Shown here: piece by piece, positions 52,536-60,593 of the stretch
Layout: each line of letters opens with the position of its first letter
Position numbering within the stretch: position 1 is the stretch's first letter
Source: an uncultured Rhodospirillaceae bacterium
GTDB lineage: Bacteria; Pseudomonadota; Alphaproteobacteria; UBA7887
Direction of reading: 5' to 3'
Assembly (NCBI GenBank): GCA_964408735.1
Contig: CAYPAX010000002.1
Span: 10,921-74,920, forward strand
DNA: 64,000 bases
Notes under the pieces: generated by a model
Seen by the model: only the letters and a program-made list of their open reading frames with translations
Told to the model about the DNA's origin: nothing
The model's database searches: none
Program-made: the position numbers and the translations under genes

Positions 52536-55500
52536 GTGAGCGAGGACGGCGGACAAGAAGGCACCACCGAGCGCGTCGCGGCGATCCTGGCGGCGGATGC
52601 CGTGGGCTATTCGCGCCTCATGGCCGACGACGAGAAGGCGACGATCGCGGCGCTGGATCGCGCGCGGGCGGTGTTCACAGAACACATAGAGGCCAACCGT
52701 GGCCGGGTGGTGGACACGGCGGGCGACAGTGTGCTGGCGGTGTTCCAGACCACAGGCGGCGCTGTGCGGGCTTCGGTGGCAATCCAGGAAGGCCTGGCGG
52801 CGCTGGGCGAGGGTGTGCCCGAGCCGCGGCAAATGCTGTTCCGCATCGGCATCCACCTCGGCGATATTCATGAGAAGGCGGATGGCACCATCTACGGCGA
52901 TGGCGTCAATGTGGCGGCGCGGCTGGAGGCGCTGAGCCAGCCAGGGGGGATAACGGTTTCCGACTCAGTGCATGGCAGCATCCGCGACCGGCTTGACGTA
53001 AGCTTCGAGTTCCTGGGCGAGCACGAAGGCAAGAACCTCCGAGCGCCTGTGAAGGCGTATCGTGTGTTGCCAGAGGGCGTGGCTCTTGACACGTCAAAGA
53101 GTAAGCTAGGAATTCCGCGTAGTGGTGTCATCGCCGCGGCAGTGGCAGCCATCCTTATCGTGGTGGGAGCGGTTTGGTGGCAGACGCGGGCGCCCGAACT
53201 GCCGCCGATGGTGAGTGCCGCCGGCACGCCCACCGACGACCCCATTCTGGCCGCGCCCTCGGGTCCGGCGATTGCAGTGCTACCTTTTACTGATTTGTCC
53301 GAGGCAGCTGGACAAGCGTTCTTTGCCGACGGCTTGGCCGAGGACATCATTACCGGGCTGTCGCGTTTCAATCATTTGCGTGTCATCGCCCGCAACTCGA
53401 CCTTCCAGTACAAAGGCCAGGCGGTCGATGTGCGTGAGGTCGGCGAGGCGCTGGGTGTGCGCTACGTGCTCGAAGGCAGCGTCCGGCGAGCGGGTGACTC
53501 GTTACGTGTCTCGGCCCAGCTTCTCGATGCCCGCGACGGCACCCACCTGTGGGCGGAAACTTATGCCCGCGATCTCACTACCGCCGACATCTTCGGTGTC
53601 CAGGACAGCATCATGGAGCGTATCGTCGGGACCCTTGGTGATGAGCATGGTGTCATCAGTCGTGCCGGATTGGCAGAGACCGCAGCTCGCCACACCGACA
53701 ATCTCAGCGCCTACGAATGCGTGCTGCGCGCCTACGGCTATTACGACGTGATCACCCCGGCTGAGCATCTTGCGGTGCGCGCCTGCCTGGAGGAAGCGGT
53801 GGCTCTTGACCTGACCTACGCCGAGGCCTGGGGTTGGCTATCCCACATGTATCAGGACGAATACAAGTTCGGTTTCAATCCACGCCCCGACGTGGGCGAT
53901 CCGCTGGCGTCGGCCATCGCGGCTTCGCAGAATGCGATCAAGGCCGATCCGACCAGCCAGATTGGCTACGAATCCCTGGCCACGGGGCACTATTTCGCCG
54001 GCGACCTGGAGCAATTTCGTATCGCTGCCGAACGGGCGCTGTCGCTCAATCCGAACAACTCGCAAACGCTGGCCTATCTCGGCCAAATGATCGCATTTGC
54101 CGGTGATTGGGACAGAGGGATTGCCTTGATGGACAAGGCGGTGAGCCTCAATCCCAATCACCCCACCTGGTATCACGCCGCATACCTCATGCGACACTAT
54201 CGCGACGCCGACTACGCGGCGGCCTTGCTTTCGGCCAAGCGCTACAACTTGCCCATATTCTTCGCGCACCATTTGTTTCATGCGATCATCTACGCACAGC
54301 TGGGCCGGACCGAAGAGGCGCGGGCATCTATCGTCGCGCTTGAAGCGCTGTACCCGGGATATGCCGACGTAGCGCGCAGCAATCTGGAAAAATGGTGGAA
54401 AGACGAGGCGGTGGTCACTGCCATGCTCGACGGCCTGGAAAAAGCCGGCCTCTTCGATGAGCCCGAACCGCCATCCCGGCCCGTCATTGCCGTGCTGCCC
54501 TTCGACAATCTCTCTGGCGATCCCGAGCAGGACTATTTCGCCGACGGCATCACCGAGGACATCATCACGCGGCTGGCGCAGTTTCCGGACATTCTCGTGC
54601 TCGGGCGCAACACGACCTTCCAGTTCAAGGGCGAGGCGGTGGACGTGAAGGAGATCGGCGCCAGGTTGGAAGCCGACTACATCGTCGAAGGCAGCATCCG
54701 CCGCGCCGGCGAGACCGTGCGGGTCAACGCCCAGCTGCTCGATACCGAGAGCGGTGGCCATATCTGGGCCGAGACCTACGACCGCGCCCTTGACCCAGCC
54801 AACCTCTTCGCCATGCAGGACGAGATCACGGAAGCCGTCGCCAGCCGTATCGGCGACCGACATGGGGCGATTGGCCGTGCCGAGTTTCAGCGCTCCTCCC
54901 GACAAGCGCCAAAGAGTCTTTCGTCATACGAGTGCATTCTGAGATTTGTCGAGTTTCAACGGCACTTCAACGAGGAGACCCATGGTGTGGCGCGTGCCTG
55001 CCTGGAGGAAGTCGTCGAGGCAGAGCCCGATTACGGCGAGGCCTGGGCGCTGCTTGGTAATGCGTACCTCAATGAGATCAATTTTGGATTCAATGCCTCG
55101 GCGGAGTCTTCTTTGGCGCGGGCGATAGAGTTTATGGAGCGGGGTATTGCTATCGACCCGGGAAGCGGTCTGGCCCACGTTCACTTGGCCTGGGCGCTTC
55201 TCACCAACGACAACCCGGAGCGTGCCCTGCGCGAAGCCGAGGAAGCCCTGCGGCTCGATCCCAACAACGTCGAAGTCATCGCGACGGCTGGCATAGTTTT
55301 CGTGAACACGGGGGAGTATCAACGCACCGAGGAGATCATGGCCAAGGTCACGCTGCTGAACCCGAACTATCCCGCCTGGATGAACTGGAACATGGCAAAA
55401 GTTCACCTCGCGCGCGGCGACTATGCGGACGTCGTGGCGCGCCTTGAGATGACACAGATGGCGTGGTGGTATTGGACCAAAGCCTTCCTCGCCGCCGCCC

Positions 55501-55718
55501 ATTGCGCCAACGGCGATATCGAGCGTGGGCAGGAGGAGCTCGATGCCGCCCTCCAAGCTAACCCCGACCTCGCCGAGGCGTATTGGCCGGAGGTCTATTA
55601 CTTCAACAAGAGACCCGAGGTGCAGCCAATGATCGATGCCCTCTCCGCTGGCCTTGAGGTCTGTGGCTGGGACGTGCCGCCTGACCCGGGGCGACAGGCC
55701 GCGGCTGCGCCTAAATAA
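52536..55718 (+). CDS. Class III adenylate/guanylate cyclase with one TM segment and two tandem TolB-N-like plus TPR-like modules (1060 aa)
   Basis: GTG start and a CHD domain. A TM segment follows (VIAAAVAAILIVVGAVWW). The modules start at residue 244 (PAIAVLPFTDLSE...) and residue 649 (PVIAVLPFDNLSG...). Confidence 0.85.
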   Translation: MSEDGGQEGTTERVAAILAADAVGYSRLMADDEKATIAALDRARAVFTEHIEANRGRVVDTAGDSVLAVFQTTGGAVRASVAIQEGLAALGEGVPEPRQMLFRIGIHLGDIHEKADGTIYGDGVNVAARLEALSQPGGITVSDSVHGSIRDRLDVSFEFLGEHEGKNLRAPVKAYRVLPEGVALDTSKSKLGIPRSGVIAAAVAAILIVVGAVWWQTRAPELPPMVSAAGTPTDDPILAAPSGPAIAVLPFTDLSEAAGQAFFADGLAEDIITGLSRFNHLRVIARNSTFQYKGQAVDVREVGEALGVRYVLEGSVRRAGDSLRVSAQLLDARDGTHLWAETYARDLTTADIFGVQDSIMERIVGTLGDEHGVISRAGLAETAARHTDNLSAYECVLRAYGYYDVITPAEHLAVRACLEEAVALDLTYAEAWGWLSHMYQDEYKFGFNPRPDVGDPLASAIAASQNAIKADPTSQIGYESLATGHYFAGDLEQFRIAAERALSLNPNNSQTLAYLGQMIAFAGDWDRGIALMDKAVSLNPNHPTWYHAAYLMRHYRDADYAAALLSAKRYNLPIFFAHHLFHAIIYAQLGRTEEARASIVALEALYPGYADVARSNLEKWWKDEAVVTAMLDGLEKAGLFDEPEPPSRPVIAVLPFDNLSGDPEQDYFADGITEDIITRLAQFPDILVLGRNTTFQFKGEAVDVKEIGARLEADYIVEGSIRRAGETVRVNAQLLDTESGGHIWAETYDRALDPANLFAMQDEITEAVASRIGDRHGAIGRAEFQRSSRQAPKSLSSYECILRFVEFQRHFNEETHGVARACLEEVVEAEPDYGEAWALLGNAYLNEINFGFNASAESSLARAIEFMERGIAIDPGSGLAHVHLAWALLTNDNPERALREAEEALRLDPNNVEVIATAGIVFVNTGEYQRTEEIMAKVTLLNPNYPAWMNWNMAKVHLARGDYADVVARLEMTQMAWWYWTKAFLAAAHCANGDIERGQEELDAALQANPDLAEAYWPEVYYFNKRPEVQPMIDALSAGLEVCGWDVPPDPGRQAAAAPK
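53265..54479 (+). repeat. Dispersed direct repeat: module 1 of the 52536 cyclase is ~85-90% identical at nucleotide level to 7284-8495 (module 1 of the 6576 cyclase)
   Basis: Direct comparison by eye of 7381-7680 with 53381-53680. Protein identity is ~80% across roughly 400 aa, whereas the catalytic domains are only ~55-60% identical. Confidence 0.6.
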
Positions 55719-58276: not shown

Positions 58277-58504
58277 TTATGTGTCATCGATCTCCCAGTC
58301 GTCCATGATCACGCTCTGGGATGTGCGCCGGCCGCGACAGCGGATGGTCTTGCCGACCAGCGCCTCAAGGGCCTCGTCGCGGAACGGGTTGCCGCCCTCG
58401 CGTCGGAGCAGAAACTCACCCTCGGGCGTGGCCAGCATGACCGCGTCGCGCTCGCTCTTGGAGCCCGGCGCATAGAGTCGCTTGATGACTTTTCCCGTGA
58501 TCAC
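58277..58504 (-). CDS. Small hypothetical protein (75 aa, GTG start), third gene of the lectin operon
   Basis: High-GC codon usage consistent with coding. It starts 7 nt after the 505-aa gene's stop. No recognised domain. Confidence 0.35.
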   Translation of the reverse strand: MITGKVIKRLYAPGSKSERDAVMLATPEGEFLLRREGGNPFRDEALEALVGKTIRCRGRRTSQSVIMDDWEIDDT

Positions 58505-58511
58505 CGCATGA

Positions 58512-60029
58512 TCATTTCCGATAGAGAGTCCTCACGGAAACGATAACCCCATCGCGCTCCTCGACCAAGAGCACAGCCGCATCCTGGAAAAGATCGCCGG
58601 GCGAGCCGATGGTGCCATAGGTGCTGTGGAAGCGATGCTGTTCGGCAATCATGCTGTGGGCCAGCGCGAAACTCGGACCGCCTTCGACAATGGCGGTGTC
58701 GCGCGCCGTCACCTCCAGGCCGAGGGACGCGACCAGGCGCTCGATGCCTTCGGCGACCGCGCCCTCAGGGGCCGCATCTGCCTGGGCTATGGCAAAACCG
58801 GCCTCGCTCGCCAGCGCCTCGCCGCGCGCGGTCATGCGGATGCGGTCAGCACTCCGCCTGGCCGCCTCGAGCGCCTCCTCGTCCACCACATCGAGCGCGT
58901 GCGCCTCGACAGCTTTCGCCGCCTGGACCGGGTGGGCCGCCGGATCCGAGAGCAGAATGAACTGCGCGATGGTCTTCTGATCGACCGAGCCCAAAGGATT
59001 GTTCTGGCTGATGAAGTCCTGACGCGCGAGCAGCATGGCACTGCCCGCCGAGCGACCGCCGAGAAGCTGTTTGAGGAAATCCTGGGTGATCAGGTCAGCG
59101 GCGCCCTGCCCGCTTGCGGGCCCATAGGCGATGTTGGTGCTGCCGCAAAACGCCGCGACGCCGCCCGACGTCATGGCATTGCAGATCGGCATCGTGCCTG
59201 ATCCGGAGGCGTAGAGTTCGGCGCCATAGCAGCACTCCGCGGTGGCGATCGTGCCGGCAGAGAGGTTGCCCTGGATTTGCGCGGACTCGACAGCCTTCGG
59301 ATAGCTGCTGCCCTTCTGGCCATACCAATTCGGATCCGCGTCGCTGCCGTGGCAGTTGACGAACCAGGACCGTGCGGCGAGTTGCTGGCTGGTCCAATTG
59401 GGGCCGTCGGGCGGTGACAGCTGTAGCGTGGTCGCACTGCCGAAGATTTTGCTGACGCTGGTCGTGGTCGAGCCCTGCCAGACCTCGGCGCTGACCGCGA
59501 GATAGGTCGTGTACTCGTTCTGGGGCAGGGCGGTCAGCGACGCGGAGGTGTTGATCGCGGCAACGAGCTGGGCGGTGTCGTTGCTGCCGGTTATGCCCGC
59601 AAGACGCCCGACAACCCGCGTGGGCGCCAGAAAGTCCGTAATCGTCGTGCTGTAAGCGGCGGCACAGGCATAGGGCAGGTCGGAGGGAACGTTGGCGTCC
59701 GGATCGCCCGATACCGGGTTGGTGAGGGTCTGGTGCGGCACCACGTCCGGCCCGCCGAGGATCATCAGATAGTCCGGTGTCAGTGCGGTGTAGACGCCGT
59801 CCACCGCGTCCTTGTTCTGCTGGTCGTCGGCAATGTTGGTGACCACGGGGGCGCCGAGCTTGCCCATTTGCTTGGCGTTGTCCATGAACACGATCTGGGT
59901 CGTGATGCCGCGCCTTTGGTCGGCCCCGATCAGGGTATTGAGCGCCGCCGAGATCTTCGAGACGTTGGTCCCGTACAGCTTCGTGAGCCCTTTTTGGTTG
60001 GTGACGATAACCTTGCTTGTCGTAGCCAT
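58512..60029 (-). CDS. 505-aa protein with a caspase/gingipain-like (clan CD) His-Gly...Cys signature; function unknown
   Basis: SWFVNCHGSD and GTIATAECCYGA each follow a hydrophobic strand, with 39 residues between the His and the Cys. No signal peptide. It starts 9 nt after the lectin stop. Confidence 0.55.
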   Translation of the reverse strand: MATTSKVIVTNQKGLTKLYGTNVSKISAALNTLIGADQRRGITTQIVFMDNAKQMGKLGAPVVTNIADDQQNKDAVDGVYTALTPDYLMILGGPDVVPHQTLTNPVSGDPDANVPSDLPYACAAAYSTTITDFLAPTRVVGRLAGITGSNDTAQLVAAINTSASLTALPQNEYTTYLAVSAEVWQGSTTTSVSKIFGSATTLQLSPPDGPNWTSQQLAARSWFVNCHGSDADPNWYGQKGSSYPKAVESAQIQGNLSAGTIATAECCYGAELYASGSGTMPICNAMTSGGVAAFCGSTNIAYGPASGQGAADLITQDFLKQLLGGRSAGSAMLLARQDFISQNNPLGSVDQKTIAQFILLSDPAAHPVQAAKAVEAHALDVVDEEALEAARRSADRIRMTARGEALASEAGFAIAQADAAPEGAVAEGIERLVASLGLEVTARDTAIVEGGPSFALAHSMIAEQHRFHSTYGTIGSPGDLFQDAAVLLVEERDGVIVSVRTLYRK

Positions 60030-60038
60030 GTCACGCCC

Positions 60039-60416
60039 TCACCCCTTGTGTTTCCAACAGACCAGCGAGACATAGAGATCGTTGTAGTCGTTATCGTCGC
60101 TGTCCTCGACGCTCAGATTGAAGCCGTGGCCGATGACCACGCCGTCCTCACGCGTGATGTTGTAGGAATCGATCGAGGATTTGATGCTCGTCGATTCCGG
60201 GATGTTGACCGTGATCGCCAGCCCGGTCCCCGCGATGTAGTCGCTGCCGACCGACAGCGGCGGCTCGATGTTGGTCGACTTCCGGCTGGTACTGACATAG
60301 GTCTTGCTCGAATCCTTGAGCGTGACGCCGATGGTGTAGCCAGCTTGTGTGAACATGGTCCAGGCCATGAACAGGCCCTGGTCGAAATTCGGCACACTGT
60401 AAGTTTTGGTGGCCAT
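60039..60416 (-). CDS. PA-IIL/LecB-family calcium-dependent fucose/mannose-binding lectin (125 aa)
   Basis: The C-terminal end reads VEDSDDNDYNDLYVSLVCWKHKG-COOH. It matches the LecB calcium/sugar-binding motif (LecB C-terminus: VGSEDGTDNDYNDAVVVINWPLG), including the C-terminal Gly. Strong GGGAGGGAG RBS. Confidence 0.65.
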   Translation of the reverse strand: MATKTYSVPNFDQGLFMAWTMFTQAGYTIGVTLKDSSKTYVSTSRKSTNIEPPLSVGSDYIAGTGLAITVNIPESTSIKSSIDSYNITREDGVVIGHGFNLSVEDSDDNDYNDLYVSLVCWKHKG

Positions 60417-60593
60417 TGTCTCCCTCCCTCAAATTGCATTTCTTTAAACATTACCATTAAAAATAGATAAAATAAATACACTGCCGCTATTCCGAGTAAA
60501 CAGATCCTGCTTGCGACATCAGGCGTGCCGATAATTGCCGGATCTTTCGGGCGCCGCGGGCTGTCAAAACGAGCCCGCCTTATCGCGCAAGGC
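60417..60593 (-). promoter_or_regulatory. AT-rich promoter region upstream of the lectin operon
   Basis: The stretch reads aaattgcatttctttaaacattaccattaaaaatagataaaataaatacactg. This is the most AT-rich intergenic segment in the window. Confidence 0.3.

What the first reader, a model, noticed from the sequence alone, without database searches (positions are those of the whole stretch)
58512..60029. 505-aa protein with caspase/gingipain-like His-Gly ... Cys spacing
A hydrophobic strand is followed by HG (SWFVNCHGSD). Thirty-nine residues later a second strand is followed by a Cys (GTIATAECCYGA). This is the diagnostic arrangement of clan CD peptidases (caspases, legumain, clostripain, gingipains HGSE...ACxxG, and CHAT domains). 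No signal peptide is present. The C-terminal ~200 residues are Ala/Glu-rich and unassigned. If active, it would be a cytoplasmic, lectin-associated cysteine peptidase of an unclassified family.
Basis: inference. Interest (0 to 1): 0.7.

Follow-up and report, generated by a model that had tools for sequence, protein, structure and literature searches.

The report
Cytoplasmic gingipain-like protease with OB partner
The 505-residue protein is a real, probably active cysteine protease with the fold of the gingipain gum-disease enzymes, but it lacks any export signal and is almost always encoded next to a tiny barrel-shaped partner protein that probably keeps it in check, a pairing I found no description of.

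Summary
Window 58512-60029 (minus strand) encodes a 505-aa protein with SWFVNCH227G and ECC267YG. His227, Gly228, Glu265 and Cys267 are invariant in 120 homologues.

So the clan CD reading is right, but "unclassified family" is not. Pfam files it as C25, and NCBI already names homologues "C25 family cysteine peptidase".

"Lectin-associated" is local only. The lectin-like gene recurs in just one relative.

The real conserved partner was missed. A 75-aa gene (58277-58504) lies directly downstream in 76 of 77 informative genomes across many phyla. It is an OB-fold barrel with an invariant Lys16-Ser17 loop, and it is occasionally fused to the protease. Its best structural match is potempin A, an OB-fold inhibitor co-transcribed with its target peptidase, though the margin is small.

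Best reading: a cytoplasmic peptidase that probably cleaves after basic residues, held latent by its co-translated partner. That partner role is inferred, not shown. Verdict: a new variant of a known kind, of moderate interest.

The parts
58512..60029 (-). Gene for the 505-aa gingipain-fold (C25-type) cysteine peptidase
58926..60029 (-). Catalytic domain, aa 1-368, with two alpha/beta subdomains as in gingipains
59346..59351 (-). Codons for His227-Gly228 (predicted general base and oxyanion-hole glycine)
   Evidence: Invariant in 120 and in 81 sequences. hhalign pairs them with RgpB His211-Gly212. They follow strand 221-225.
59223..59237 (-). Codons for Glu265-Cys266-Cys267-Tyr268-Gly269. Cys267 is the predicted nucleophile and Glu265 the predicted S1 acidic residue.
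   Evidence: Invariant E265, C267, G269. Cys267 and RgpB Cys244 / Kgp Cys477 all fall on PF01364 profile position ~271. Kgp has the same Cys-Cys doublet. The Glu265 role is inferred.
58515..58904 (-). C-terminal alpha/beta domain, aa 376-505. It has a long helix 384-409 carrying conserved Arg392 and Arg396. Function unknown, possibly regulatory.
   Evidence: pLDDT mostly above 90. No Pfam or PDB sequence relative. R392 76/81, R396 79/81. Absent in fusion P0311 and in the phage homologue.
58277..58504 (-). Gene for the 75-aa OB-fold partner (GTG start, 7 nt after the peptidase stop)
58451..58465 (-). Codons for the partner's Gly14-Ser15-Lys16-Ser17-Glu18 loop (beta1-beta2 loop). Predicted to be the loop presented to the protease.
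   Evidence: Lys16 and Ser17 are 77/77 invariant. Arg replaces Lys in fusion P0302. Loop position from DSSP.
60039..60416 (-). Upstream 125-aa PA-IIL/LecB-like putative calcium-dependent lectin. First gene of the local three-gene unit and a lineage-specific accessory.
   Evidence: Precomputed PF07472, but no PA-IIL hit with current Pfam. Shares the LecB E-D-x-x-D-N-D-Y-N-D...W motif and a C-terminal Gly. Found only in L006 elsewhere. Its stop lies 9 nt before the peptidase start.
60417..60593 (-). Intergenic leader of the three-gene unit. It has a terminator-like hairpin after the GST gene (60574-60591), then an AT-rich stretch (32% GC at 60431-60520) and a GAGGGAGGGAGA ribosome-binding site.
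   Evidence: These are consensus-level features only.

Best explanation
The gene encodes a catalytically competent, cytoplasmic cysteine endopeptidase of the gingipain (C25, clan CD) fold. His227-Gly228 and Cys267 form the catalytic dyad and oxyanion hole. The invariant Glu265, two residues before the nucleophile, probably lines the S1 pocket, so the enzyme probably cleaves after Lys or Arg.

The enzyme works as an obligate pair with the 75-aa OB-fold protein translated from the next cistron. The most likely arrangement is that the partner presents its invariant Gly-Ser-Lys16-Ser17-Glu loop, backed by the conserved Arg34-Arg35-x-Gly-Gly-Asn-Pro-Phe loop, to the active-site cleft. It would then act as a dedicated, substrate-like inhibitor or latency factor that keeps the intracellular protease silent until the partner is displaced, consumed or degraded. 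The family-specific C-terminal domain would be a second regulatory element.

In this genome the pair has picked up a PA-IIL-like lectin gene as first cistron. That is a local accessory, not part of the core.

Shown: fold, family, conservation of catalytic residues, lack of export signal, gene pairing, OB fold, fusions.

Inferred: activity, basic P1 preference, the inhibitor role of the partner, the regulatory role of the C-terminal domain.
For: Enzyme:
- PF01364 scores above its cut-off.
- AF2 pLDDT 95.5.
- His227-Gly228 pairs with RgpB His211-Gly212.
- Cys267 and the gingipain nucleophiles share one Pfam profile position. Kgp shares the Cys-Cys doublet.
- H227, G228, E265 and C267 are invariant.
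- No signal peptide or membrane segment.

Pairing:
- The partner is downstream in 76 of 77 informative genomes from many phyla.
- Median gap is 15 nt, and 12 pairs have overlapping stop and start codons.
- The reciprocal test held in 3 of 3 cases.
- RefSeq plasmids show the same pair.
- No other neighbour is conserved.

Physical link:
- Three independent natural fusions of protease and OB domain.

Inhibitor reading:
- The partner is a 5-stranded OB barrel whose best PDB match is potempin A; potempin D is also listed.
- Potempins are OB-fold inhibitors co-transcribed with their target peptidases, and they block them by inserting surface loops into the cleft (PMC9890683).
- Lys16-Ser17 is invariant in an exposed loop, and the only substitution seen is the conservative Arg in P0302.
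- A secreted tandem-OB version exists; multi-domain arrays are typical of protease inhibitors.
- Partner pI ranges from 4.7 to 10 (median 7.9), which is not the uniformly basic profile expected of a nucleic-acid binder.
- A phage homologue has neither partner nor C-terminal domain, as expected if both are host-side regulatory add-ons.

Basic P1 (own knowledge): an acidic residue at Cys-2 forms the S1 pocket in Arg/Lys-specific metacaspases (D-C-C in TbMCA2) and in MALT1. The same position is Gln283 in caspase-1 and Val242 in the RgpB S1 wall.
Against: - No activity data exist.
- Foldseek did not list gingipains. It ranked SAVED-CHAT first with TM of only ~0.25.
- The family profile does not find gingipains by sequence in the PDB.
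- hhalign -glob put Cys267 on RgpB Cys255, not Cys244.
- The third catalytic residue of gingipains (Glu152 / Asp388) has no conserved counterpart; aa 182 is variable.
- An invariant Lys-Ser loop fits a substrate as well as an inhibitor.
- The module is absent from PADLOC models.
Confidence: 0.5

Rival explanations
1. The OB protein is the dedicated substrate rather than an inhibitor. The protease cleaves it at Lys16-Ser17 (or Arg34-Arg35), and the cleaved or destabilised product, or its loss, is the output signal. This would resemble a pro-protein/convertase pair, or Craspase cleaving Csx30.
For: The Lys16-Ser17 dipeptide is invariant in an exposed loop. Pairing is strict and fusions exist. 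The predicted P1 preference is basic (inference from Glu265).
Against: Cleavage between beta1 and beta2 would destroy a 75-aa barrel that has no other recognisable effector domain. No downstream effector gene is conserved. The best structural match is an inhibitor family.
Confidence: 0.2
2. The pair is the core of a mobile conflict or abortive-infection module. The protease would be a toxin or activator released on phage or stress cues. The variable upstream genes (GDSL and LCAT-like lipases, SLT+VanY, subtilase, amidohydrolase, lectin) would be its client effectors.
For: Distribution is patchy and spans many phyla: 478 species genomes, and 10 plasmids of which 7 are conjugative. In about a fifth of loci a different hydrolase, none with an obvious signal peptide by eye, is tightly coupled upstream. 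TIR/nSTAND, AbiE, HigB and ParE genes lie nearby in several loci.
Against: Most loci hold only the two genes among housekeeping genes. There is no PADLOC or PHROGs hit. No NTPase or nucleotide-sensor partner is present. The upstream genes were called with a crude ORF finder, so some may be coincidental.
Confidence: 0.12
3. The enzyme is a transpeptidase or ligase rather than a hydrolase, as in PorU, GPI8 or legumain-type ligases of clan CD. It would attach something to the partner's invariant Lys16, or transfer the partner itself.
For: Clan CD contains several transamidases (own knowledge), and PorU is a C25 member. An invariant Lys could be an acceptor amine.
Confidence: 0.06
4. The enzyme is a ligand-activated signalling protease. 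The N-terminal subdomain would be a small-molecule sensor, as in SAVED-CHAT or InsP6-activated CPD domains, and the OB protein a target.
For: Foldseek's top hits are SAVED-CHAT (E 3e-5). There is a weak PADLOC Csm6/CARF hit at aa 11-67 (E 0.0036). Many invariant residues, including basic ones, lie in subdomain A (K6, K73, R138, R142).
Confidence: 0.06
5. The protein is a non-catalytic pseudo-protease or scaffold, or the His...Cys pattern is a chance motif.
For: No conserved counterpart of the gingipain third catalytic residue was found. No activity data exist.
Against: His-Gly, Glu-Cys-Cys-Tyr-Gly and many pocket-region residues are invariant across more than 100 sequences at ~40% identity. 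Fold and Pfam matches agree. Caspases also work with a dyad (own knowledge).
Confidence: 0.03

Closest known systems
Gingipains RgpB and Kgp of Porphyromonas gingivalis (MEROPS C25, Pfam PF01364)
   Different: Identity is only 13-16%, and gingipains are not detected by profile search of the PDB. This protein has no signal peptide, N-terminal prodomain, Ig-like domain or type IX secretion C-terminal domain. It has a different C-terminal alpha/beta domain. The His-Cys spacer is 40 residues against 33. There is no conserved Glu152/Asp388 or Asp163/Asp516 equivalent, but there is an invariant Glu at Cys-2. It occurs in many phyla rather than being Bacteroidota-specific. It has an obligatory OB partner.
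KLIKK peptidase / potempin pairs of Tannerella forsythia (PMC9890683)
   Different: There is no sequence similarity (8% identity). Potempins are secreted lipoproteins encoded upstream of secreted metallo- or serine peptidases, and they use the beta4-beta5 or beta2-beta3 loops. Here both proteins are cytoplasmic, the partner is downstream, the conserved loops are beta1-beta2 and beta3-alpha, and the target is a cysteine peptidase.
Staphopain / staphostatin and streptopain / inhibitor operons
   Same: A cysteine peptidase is co-transcribed with a small cytoplasmic beta-barrel inhibitor that protects the producer (cited in PMC9890683; own knowledge).
   Different: Those peptidases are clan CA (papain-like) and secreted, and staphostatins are eight-stranded barrels. 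There is no homology.
Metacaspases and the paracaspase MALT1 (C14B)
   Same: They are clan CD enzymes with an acidic residue two positions before the catalytic Cys, which builds an Arg/Lys-specific S1 pocket (own knowledge). The D-C-C motif of TbMCA2 resembles E-C-C here. Both are intracellular.
PorU (C25 sortase-like transpeptidase of type IX secretion)
   Same: It belongs to the same Pfam family and is a clan CD fold.
SAVED-CHAT and Craspase CHAT proteases
   Same: They are intracellular, regulated clan CD proteases of prokaryotes, and they are Foldseek's top hits.

Membership tests
Clan CD (caspase-like) cysteine peptidases | His-Gly and Cys each at the C-terminal end of successive strands of an alpha/beta sandwich | tested here: met
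Clan CD (caspase-like) cysteine peptidases | Catalytic His and Cys conserved in homologues | tested here: met
   Invariant in 120 homologues and in 81 genome-derived sequences (the Cys motif in that set is partly pattern-selected).
Peptidase family C25 (gingipain; Pfam PF01364) | Scores above the curated Pfam gathering threshold | tested here: met
   33.6 bits against a cut-off of 23, E 3.2e-8. For several homologues the precomputed hit is only 'weak' or 'faint', so this is a peripheral branch.
Peptidase family C25 (gingipain; Pfam PF01364) | Two-subdomain catalytic domain superposable on RgpB and Kgp | tested here: met
Peptidase family C25 (gingipain; Pfam PF01364) | Nucleophile equivalent to RgpB Cys244 / Kgp Cys477, and base equivalent to His211 / His444 | tested here: met
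   His: hhalign pairs H227-G228 with H211-G212. Cys: fragment mapping puts C267, C244 and C477 all at PF01364 profile position ~271. Caveat: hhalign -glob placed C267 on Cys255, which I attribute to the spacer being 7 residues longer.
Peptidase family C25 (gingipain; Pfam PF01364) | Third catalytic residue (RgpB Glu152 / Kgp Asp388) | tested here: not met
   The corresponding position after strand 176-180 (aa 182) is variable: E23, Q12, K11, A10, D9 of 81.
Peptidase family C25 (gingipain; Pfam PF01364) | S1 specificity aspartate (RgpB Asp163 or Kgp Asp516) | tested here: inconclusive
   hhalign puts the invariant Ser187 opposite Asp163 and finds no Asp opposite Asp516. Invariant Glu265 and Asp312 are candidate replacements. 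Settling this needs coordinates.
Gingipains proper (secreted virulence proteases) | Signal peptide, N-terminal prodomain, Ig-like domain and type IX secretion C-terminal domain | tested here: not met
   Beta-strand 1 starts at residue 4 and there is no hydrophobic segment. The C-terminal 130 aa have no Pfam hit and a mixed alpha/beta architecture.
Peptidase family C25 (gingipain; Pfam PF01364) | Cysteine-dependent peptide-bond hydrolysis | not testable with these tools
   Needs enzyme assays.
Co-transcribed OB-fold peptidase inhibitors (potempin-like), for the 75-aa partner | Five-stranded OB barrel encoded adjacent to and co-directional with the peptidase | tested here: met
   DSSP shows 5 strands and a helix, pLDDT 91. 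Adjacency holds in 76/77 loci, median gap 15 nt.
Co-transcribed OB-fold peptidase inhibitors (potempin-like), for the 75-aa partner | Homology to potempins, and export as a lipoprotein | tested here: not met
Co-transcribed OB-fold peptidase inhibitors (potempin-like), for the 75-aa partner | Stoichiometric inhibition of the linked peptidase | not testable with these tools
   Needs biochemistry or at least a complex prediction.
Type II toxin-antitoxin modules | Antitoxin with a DNA-binding domain that autoregulates the operon, and a growth-arresting toxin | tested here: inconclusive
   The layout is a two-gene, translationally coupled, horizontally spread pair. The partner has no HTH or RHH domain, and toxicity is untested.
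PA-IIL / LecB lectins, for the upstream 125-aa gene | Match to the PF07472 model | tested here: inconclusive
   The precomputed table lists PF07472. hmmscan with the current model gives no hit at E<=1, although LecB itself scores 163 bits.
PA-IIL / LecB lectins, for the upstream 125-aa gene | Calcium- and sugar-binding motif E-D-x-x-D-N-D-Y-N-D and a C-terminal glycine | tested here: met
   EDSDDNDYND...WKHKG-stop. BLASTP against LecB residues 95-111 gives E 3e-4.

The most novel reading that the evidence does not exclude
The protease-OB pair is a self-contained, horizontally mobile intracellular protease switch of a kind not yet described. It would be a gingipain-fold toxin or activator held by a substrate-mimicking OB 'antiprotease'. 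Infection or stress would release it to degrade cellular targets, or to activate the variable neighbouring lipases, cell-wall hydrolases or lectins. That would be a new class of toxin-antitoxin-like or abortive-infection system.
Probability: 0.15. Interest if true: 0.75.

Novelty: new variant of a known kind. Interest (0 to 1): 0.5.

Why it matters
To my knowledge, the characterised members of peptidase family C25 are the secreted gingipains and PorU of Bacteroidota, studied as virulence and secretion factors.

This locus belongs to a large branch with more than 2,000 protein clusters, found in 478 species genomes from Proteobacteria, Acidobacteria, Planctomycetes, Nitrospira, Bacteroidota, Actinobacteria and others. 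That branch has no export signal, carries its own C-terminal domain, and is almost always paired with a tiny OB-fold protein.

If the partner is a cognate inhibitor, this would be the first intracellular gingipain-type protease/antiprotease pair. It would also be a second, independent use of the OB fold as a protease inhibitor. It would be a cheap experimental system: two small soluble proteins, with cultured Rhizobium, Bradyrhizobium and Chitinophaga hosts. It could answer how bacteria keep a caspase-like protease latent in their own cytoplasm, and what such proteases are for.

It also corrects database practice. The partner is annotated only as 'hypothetical protein'.

Tried and rejected
- **PDB by sequence.** phmmer with the protein found nothing. 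The family profile found only a spurious coiled-coil hit.
- **hhalign against gingipains.** Against RgpB alone or RgpB+Kgp in local mode, only the N-terminal subdomain aligned. Global mode aligned the whole domain but misplaced the Cys. I resolved this with Pfam fragment mapping.
- **Other libraries.** NCBIfam, PADLOC and PHROGs gave no meaningful hit for any of the three genes. The weak Csm6/CARF hit (E 0.0036) was judged non-specific Rossmann-like similarity.
- **AFDB Foldseek.** The library was unavailable.
- **Foldseek against the PDB.** It confirmed the clan only, not the family.
- **'Lectin-associated' as a family trait.** Rejected, because the lectin recurs only in L006.
- **Other conserved neighbours.** All-against-all clustering of ORFs within ±5 kb in 81 loci found none beyond the pair. 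The remaining large clusters are antisense ORF artefacts.
- **Phage origin.** No INPHARED hit. There was a single distant 330-aa relative among 2.9 million IMG/VR contigs, and its downstream 96-aa ORF is not an OB partner.
- **Literature.** Searches for the family, for C25 outside Bacteroidota, and for gingipain-type defence or TA systems found nothing relevant.
- **Nucleic-acid-binding role for the OB partner.** Considered but not favoured, because pI is not consistently basic. It is not excluded.
Full report
**1. The observation**

The ORF is real, but it lies on the minus strand: 60029 down to 58512, 505 aa. SWFVNCHGSD occupies aa 221-230 (His227-Gly228). GTIATAECCYGA occupies aa 259-270 (Cys266-Cys267). 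His227 to Cys266 is 39 residues.

An alignment of 31 homologues, then of 120 at 39-52% identity, shows His227, Gly228, Glu265, Cys267 and Gly269 to be invariant. Cys266 is at least 90% conserved and is Ala in P0112, so Cys267 is the conserved thiol. In 81 sequences taken from species-representative genomes, Asn225, His227 and Gly228 are 81/81. The ECCYG invariance in that set is partly circular, because ECCYG was a search pattern.

There is no signal peptide or membrane segment. The maximum Kyte-Doolittle 19-residue mean is 1.0, and the first beta-strand starts at residue 4.

The region outside the peptidase domain is about 135 residues, not ~200. It is Ala/Glu-rich but is predicted with high confidence as a folded domain.

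**2. What the protein is**

- **Pfam.** PF01364 (Peptidase_C25) hits the whole protein at 33.6 bits against a curated cut-off of 23.
- **Model.** AlphaFold2 with a 120-sequence alignment gives pLDDT 95.5 and pTM 0.95.

The relationship is remote in sequence (13-16% identity).
- The family profile finds no gingipain in the PDB.
- Local hhalign recovers only the N-terminal subdomain.
- Foldseek ranks SAVED-CHAT and caspases with poor TM-scores (~0.25) and does not list gingipains.

**3. Residue-level mapping**

I retrieved the RgpB and Kgp chain sequences. My recalled sequences were identical to 4IEF_B 1-348 and 4RBM_A 1-453, and the literature residues E152, D163, H211, C244 and D388, H444, C477, D516 fall where expected.

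Global hhalign (E 1.4e-5) produced these pairings:

| This protein | RgpB |
|---|---|
| His227-Gly228 | His211-Gly212 |
| Arg142 | Arg112 |
| Ser297 | Ser278 |
| Asp362-Pro363 | Asp341-Pro342 |
| Cys267 | Cys255 (misplaced) |

Mapping fragments onto the same Pfam profile resolves the Cys placement. Our aa 259-365 map to profile 263-372. RgpB 231-262 and the Kgp equivalent start at profile 258. So Cys267, Cys244 and Cys477 all sit at profile position ~271. RgpB Cys255 more likely corresponds to our Cys283 (P-I-C against P-C). Kgp has the same Cys-Cys doublet (G-N-C476-C477) as our E-C266-C267.

The gingipain third catalytic residue has no conserved counterpart, because aa 182 is variable. No Asp aligns with the gingipain S1 aspartates.

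The invariant Glu265 lies two residues before the nucleophile. From my own knowledge of the families, that position is Val242 in the RgpB S1 wall and Gln283 in caspase-1. It is an Asp that creates Arg/Lys specificity in metacaspases (D-C-C in TbMCA2) and in MALT1. I therefore predict cleavage after basic residues. This is inference, not shown.

**4. The surroundings and the real partner**

Three genes on the minus strand are packed together:
- a 125-aa lectin-like gene at 60416-60039;
- the peptidase gene, starting 9 nt after the lectin stop;
- a 75-aa gene at 58504-58277, with a GTG start 7 nt after the peptidase stop.

Upstream of the lectin gene lie a terminator-like hairpin and an AT-rich leader, 32% GC in a 66% GC window.

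In 80 loci from other species genomes, the lectin recurs only in the closest one, L006. The 75-aa gene is found immediately downstream of the peptidase gene in 76 loci. Three of the four misses are contig ends, leaving only L063. The median gap is 15 nt, 65 of 77 gaps are 50 nt or less, and 12 pairs overlap.

Clustering all ORFs within ±5 kb shows nothing else conserved. Gene-called contexts confirm a stand-alone pair among unrelated genes. Starting instead from partner homologues on long contigs, the peptidase gene is upstream in 3 of 3. RefSeq rhizobial plasmids show 'C25 family cysteine peptidase' followed by a small 'hypothetical protein'.

**5. The partner**

It has no Pfam, NCBIfam, PADLOC or PHROGs hit. 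A profile search found 1,871 homologues and 794 clusters at 50% identity.

AlphaFold (pLDDT 91) gives five strands with a short helix between beta3 and beta4, which is an OB fold. Gly4, Lys16, Ser17 and Gly58 are 77/77 invariant. Lys16-Ser17 sit in the beta1-beta2 loop (G-S-K-S-E). A second conserved stretch, L-R-R-x-G-G-N-P-F-x-D, follows beta3.

Three cluster representatives are natural fusions:
- P0302 and P0395 are full protease plus OB domain.
- P0311 is catalytic domain plus OB domain without the C-terminal domain.
- In P0302 the loop reads G-S-R-S-E.

A secreted tandem-OB protein (P0254) and other architectures also exist. Partner pI ranges from 4.7 to 10, median 7.9.

**6. Mechanism**

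- **Shown:** a gingipain-fold protein with a conserved catalytic dyad and no export signal; a strictly linked, translationally coupled OB-fold partner with an invariant basic loop; occasional fusion of the two.
- **Inferred:** the enzyme is active and prefers Lys/Arg at P1; the partner presents Lys16 to the S1 pocket and acts as a dedicated inhibitor or latency factor; the C-terminal domain is a further regulatory element. That domain has a long helix with conserved Arg392 and Arg396.

A phage contig encodes a 330-aa catalytic-domain-only relative (hhalign probability 99.6%). It has neither the C-terminal domain nor an OB partner, which fits both being host-side regulatory additions.

I put the enzyme identity at about 0.9 and the inhibitor reading at about 0.45-0.5. 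The main rival is that the partner is the substrate.

**7. Comparison with what is known, and novelty**

The protein meets the Pfam and fold criteria of family C25, and NCBI already names homologues so. It is therefore not an unclassified family.

It differs from every characterised C25 member in these ways:
- it has no export signal;
- it lacks the prodomain, Ig-like domain and type IX secretion C-terminal domain;
- it has its own C-terminal domain;
- it lacks the gingipain third residue and S1 aspartates;
- it has a wide, patchy distribution, including conjugative plasmids;
- it has an obligatory OB partner.

Full-text searches found no description of this branch or of the pair. The searched library is incomplete, so this is absence of evidence only. 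I rate it a new variant of a known kind, interest 0.5.

**8. Limits**

- Model coordinates could not be read, so no distances or docking were measured.
- The upstream 'variable hydrolase' pattern rests on a crude ORF caller plus ten Pfam scans.
- All functional statements beyond fold and linkage are inference.

Noticed in passing
window 60039-60416 (-): The 125-aa protein ends in the LecB/PA-IIL calcium-binding motif (EDSDDNDYND...WKHKG-stop). The current Pfam PA-IIL model gives no hit at E<=1, whereas the precomputed table lists PF07472. Its GC is 57% in a 66% GC window, and it sits behind a 32% GC leader, so it looks recently acquired.
   Followed up: partly
L051 7008-7982, L071 7045-7983, L073 301-1236, L021 642-2309, L065 5111-6784, L046/L057, L047/L056, L076 269-1453, L093/L094 3455-3931: In about a fifth of loci a different gene is tightly coupled upstream of the protease. 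Examples are a GDSL-like lipase (9 loci), S8 subtilase, amidohydrolase, SLT+VanY cell-wall hydrolase, LCAT-like lipase and a type IV pilin-like protein. None has an obvious signal peptide by eye. They may be clients or cargo of the protease.
   Followed up: partly
L090 9910-11199: Directly downstream of one protease-OB pair lies a Peptidase_C14 caspase fused to agglutinin/ricin-type lectin C-terminal domains. This is a second protease-lectin juxtaposition.
   Followed up: no
P0254, P0280, P0255: The G-S-K-S-E OB domain also occurs outside the pair. P0254 is a signal-peptide protein with two tandem OB domains. In P0280 and P0255 the OB domain is embedded between unrelated N- and C-terminal regions.
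   Followed up: no
L096 6028-7020 (IMG/VR contig IMGVR_UViG_3300025030_000118): An AT-rich phage contig encodes a 330-aa catalytic-domain-only relative (LHG...ECCYG retained; hhalign E 7e-25). It sits between primase-like and exonuclease-like genes and has no OB partner.
   Followed up: partly
L091 and L092 (Rhizobium and Bradyrhizobium plasmids): Plasmid copies of the pair sit among ferritin-like, radical SAM, Dyp-type peroxidase and peroxidase-family genes. In Bradyrhizobium they lie next to an AbiEi/AbiEii toxin-antitoxin pair and two serine peptidase genes.
   Followed up: no
L088 1-4665: A TIR_2 protein, an nSTAND/AAA ATPase and a WD40 protein (a defence-island-like cluster) lie about 3 kb from one copy of the pair.
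   Followed up: no
protease aa 6-142 (window ~59604-60014, minus strand): Many invariant residues lie in subdomain A, far from the catalytic dyad in sequence: K6, N11, Y19, K73, D77, D95, N104, D117, P119, Y120, R138, R142. This suggests a second functional surface. There is also a weak PADLOC Csm6/CARF hit at aa 11-67 (E 0.0036).
   Followed up: no
window 52536-55718 (+): A 1,060-aa protein with an N-terminal guanylate/adenylate cyclase domain followed by two TPR-containing repeats lies 2.8 kb away on the opposite strand.
   Followed up: no
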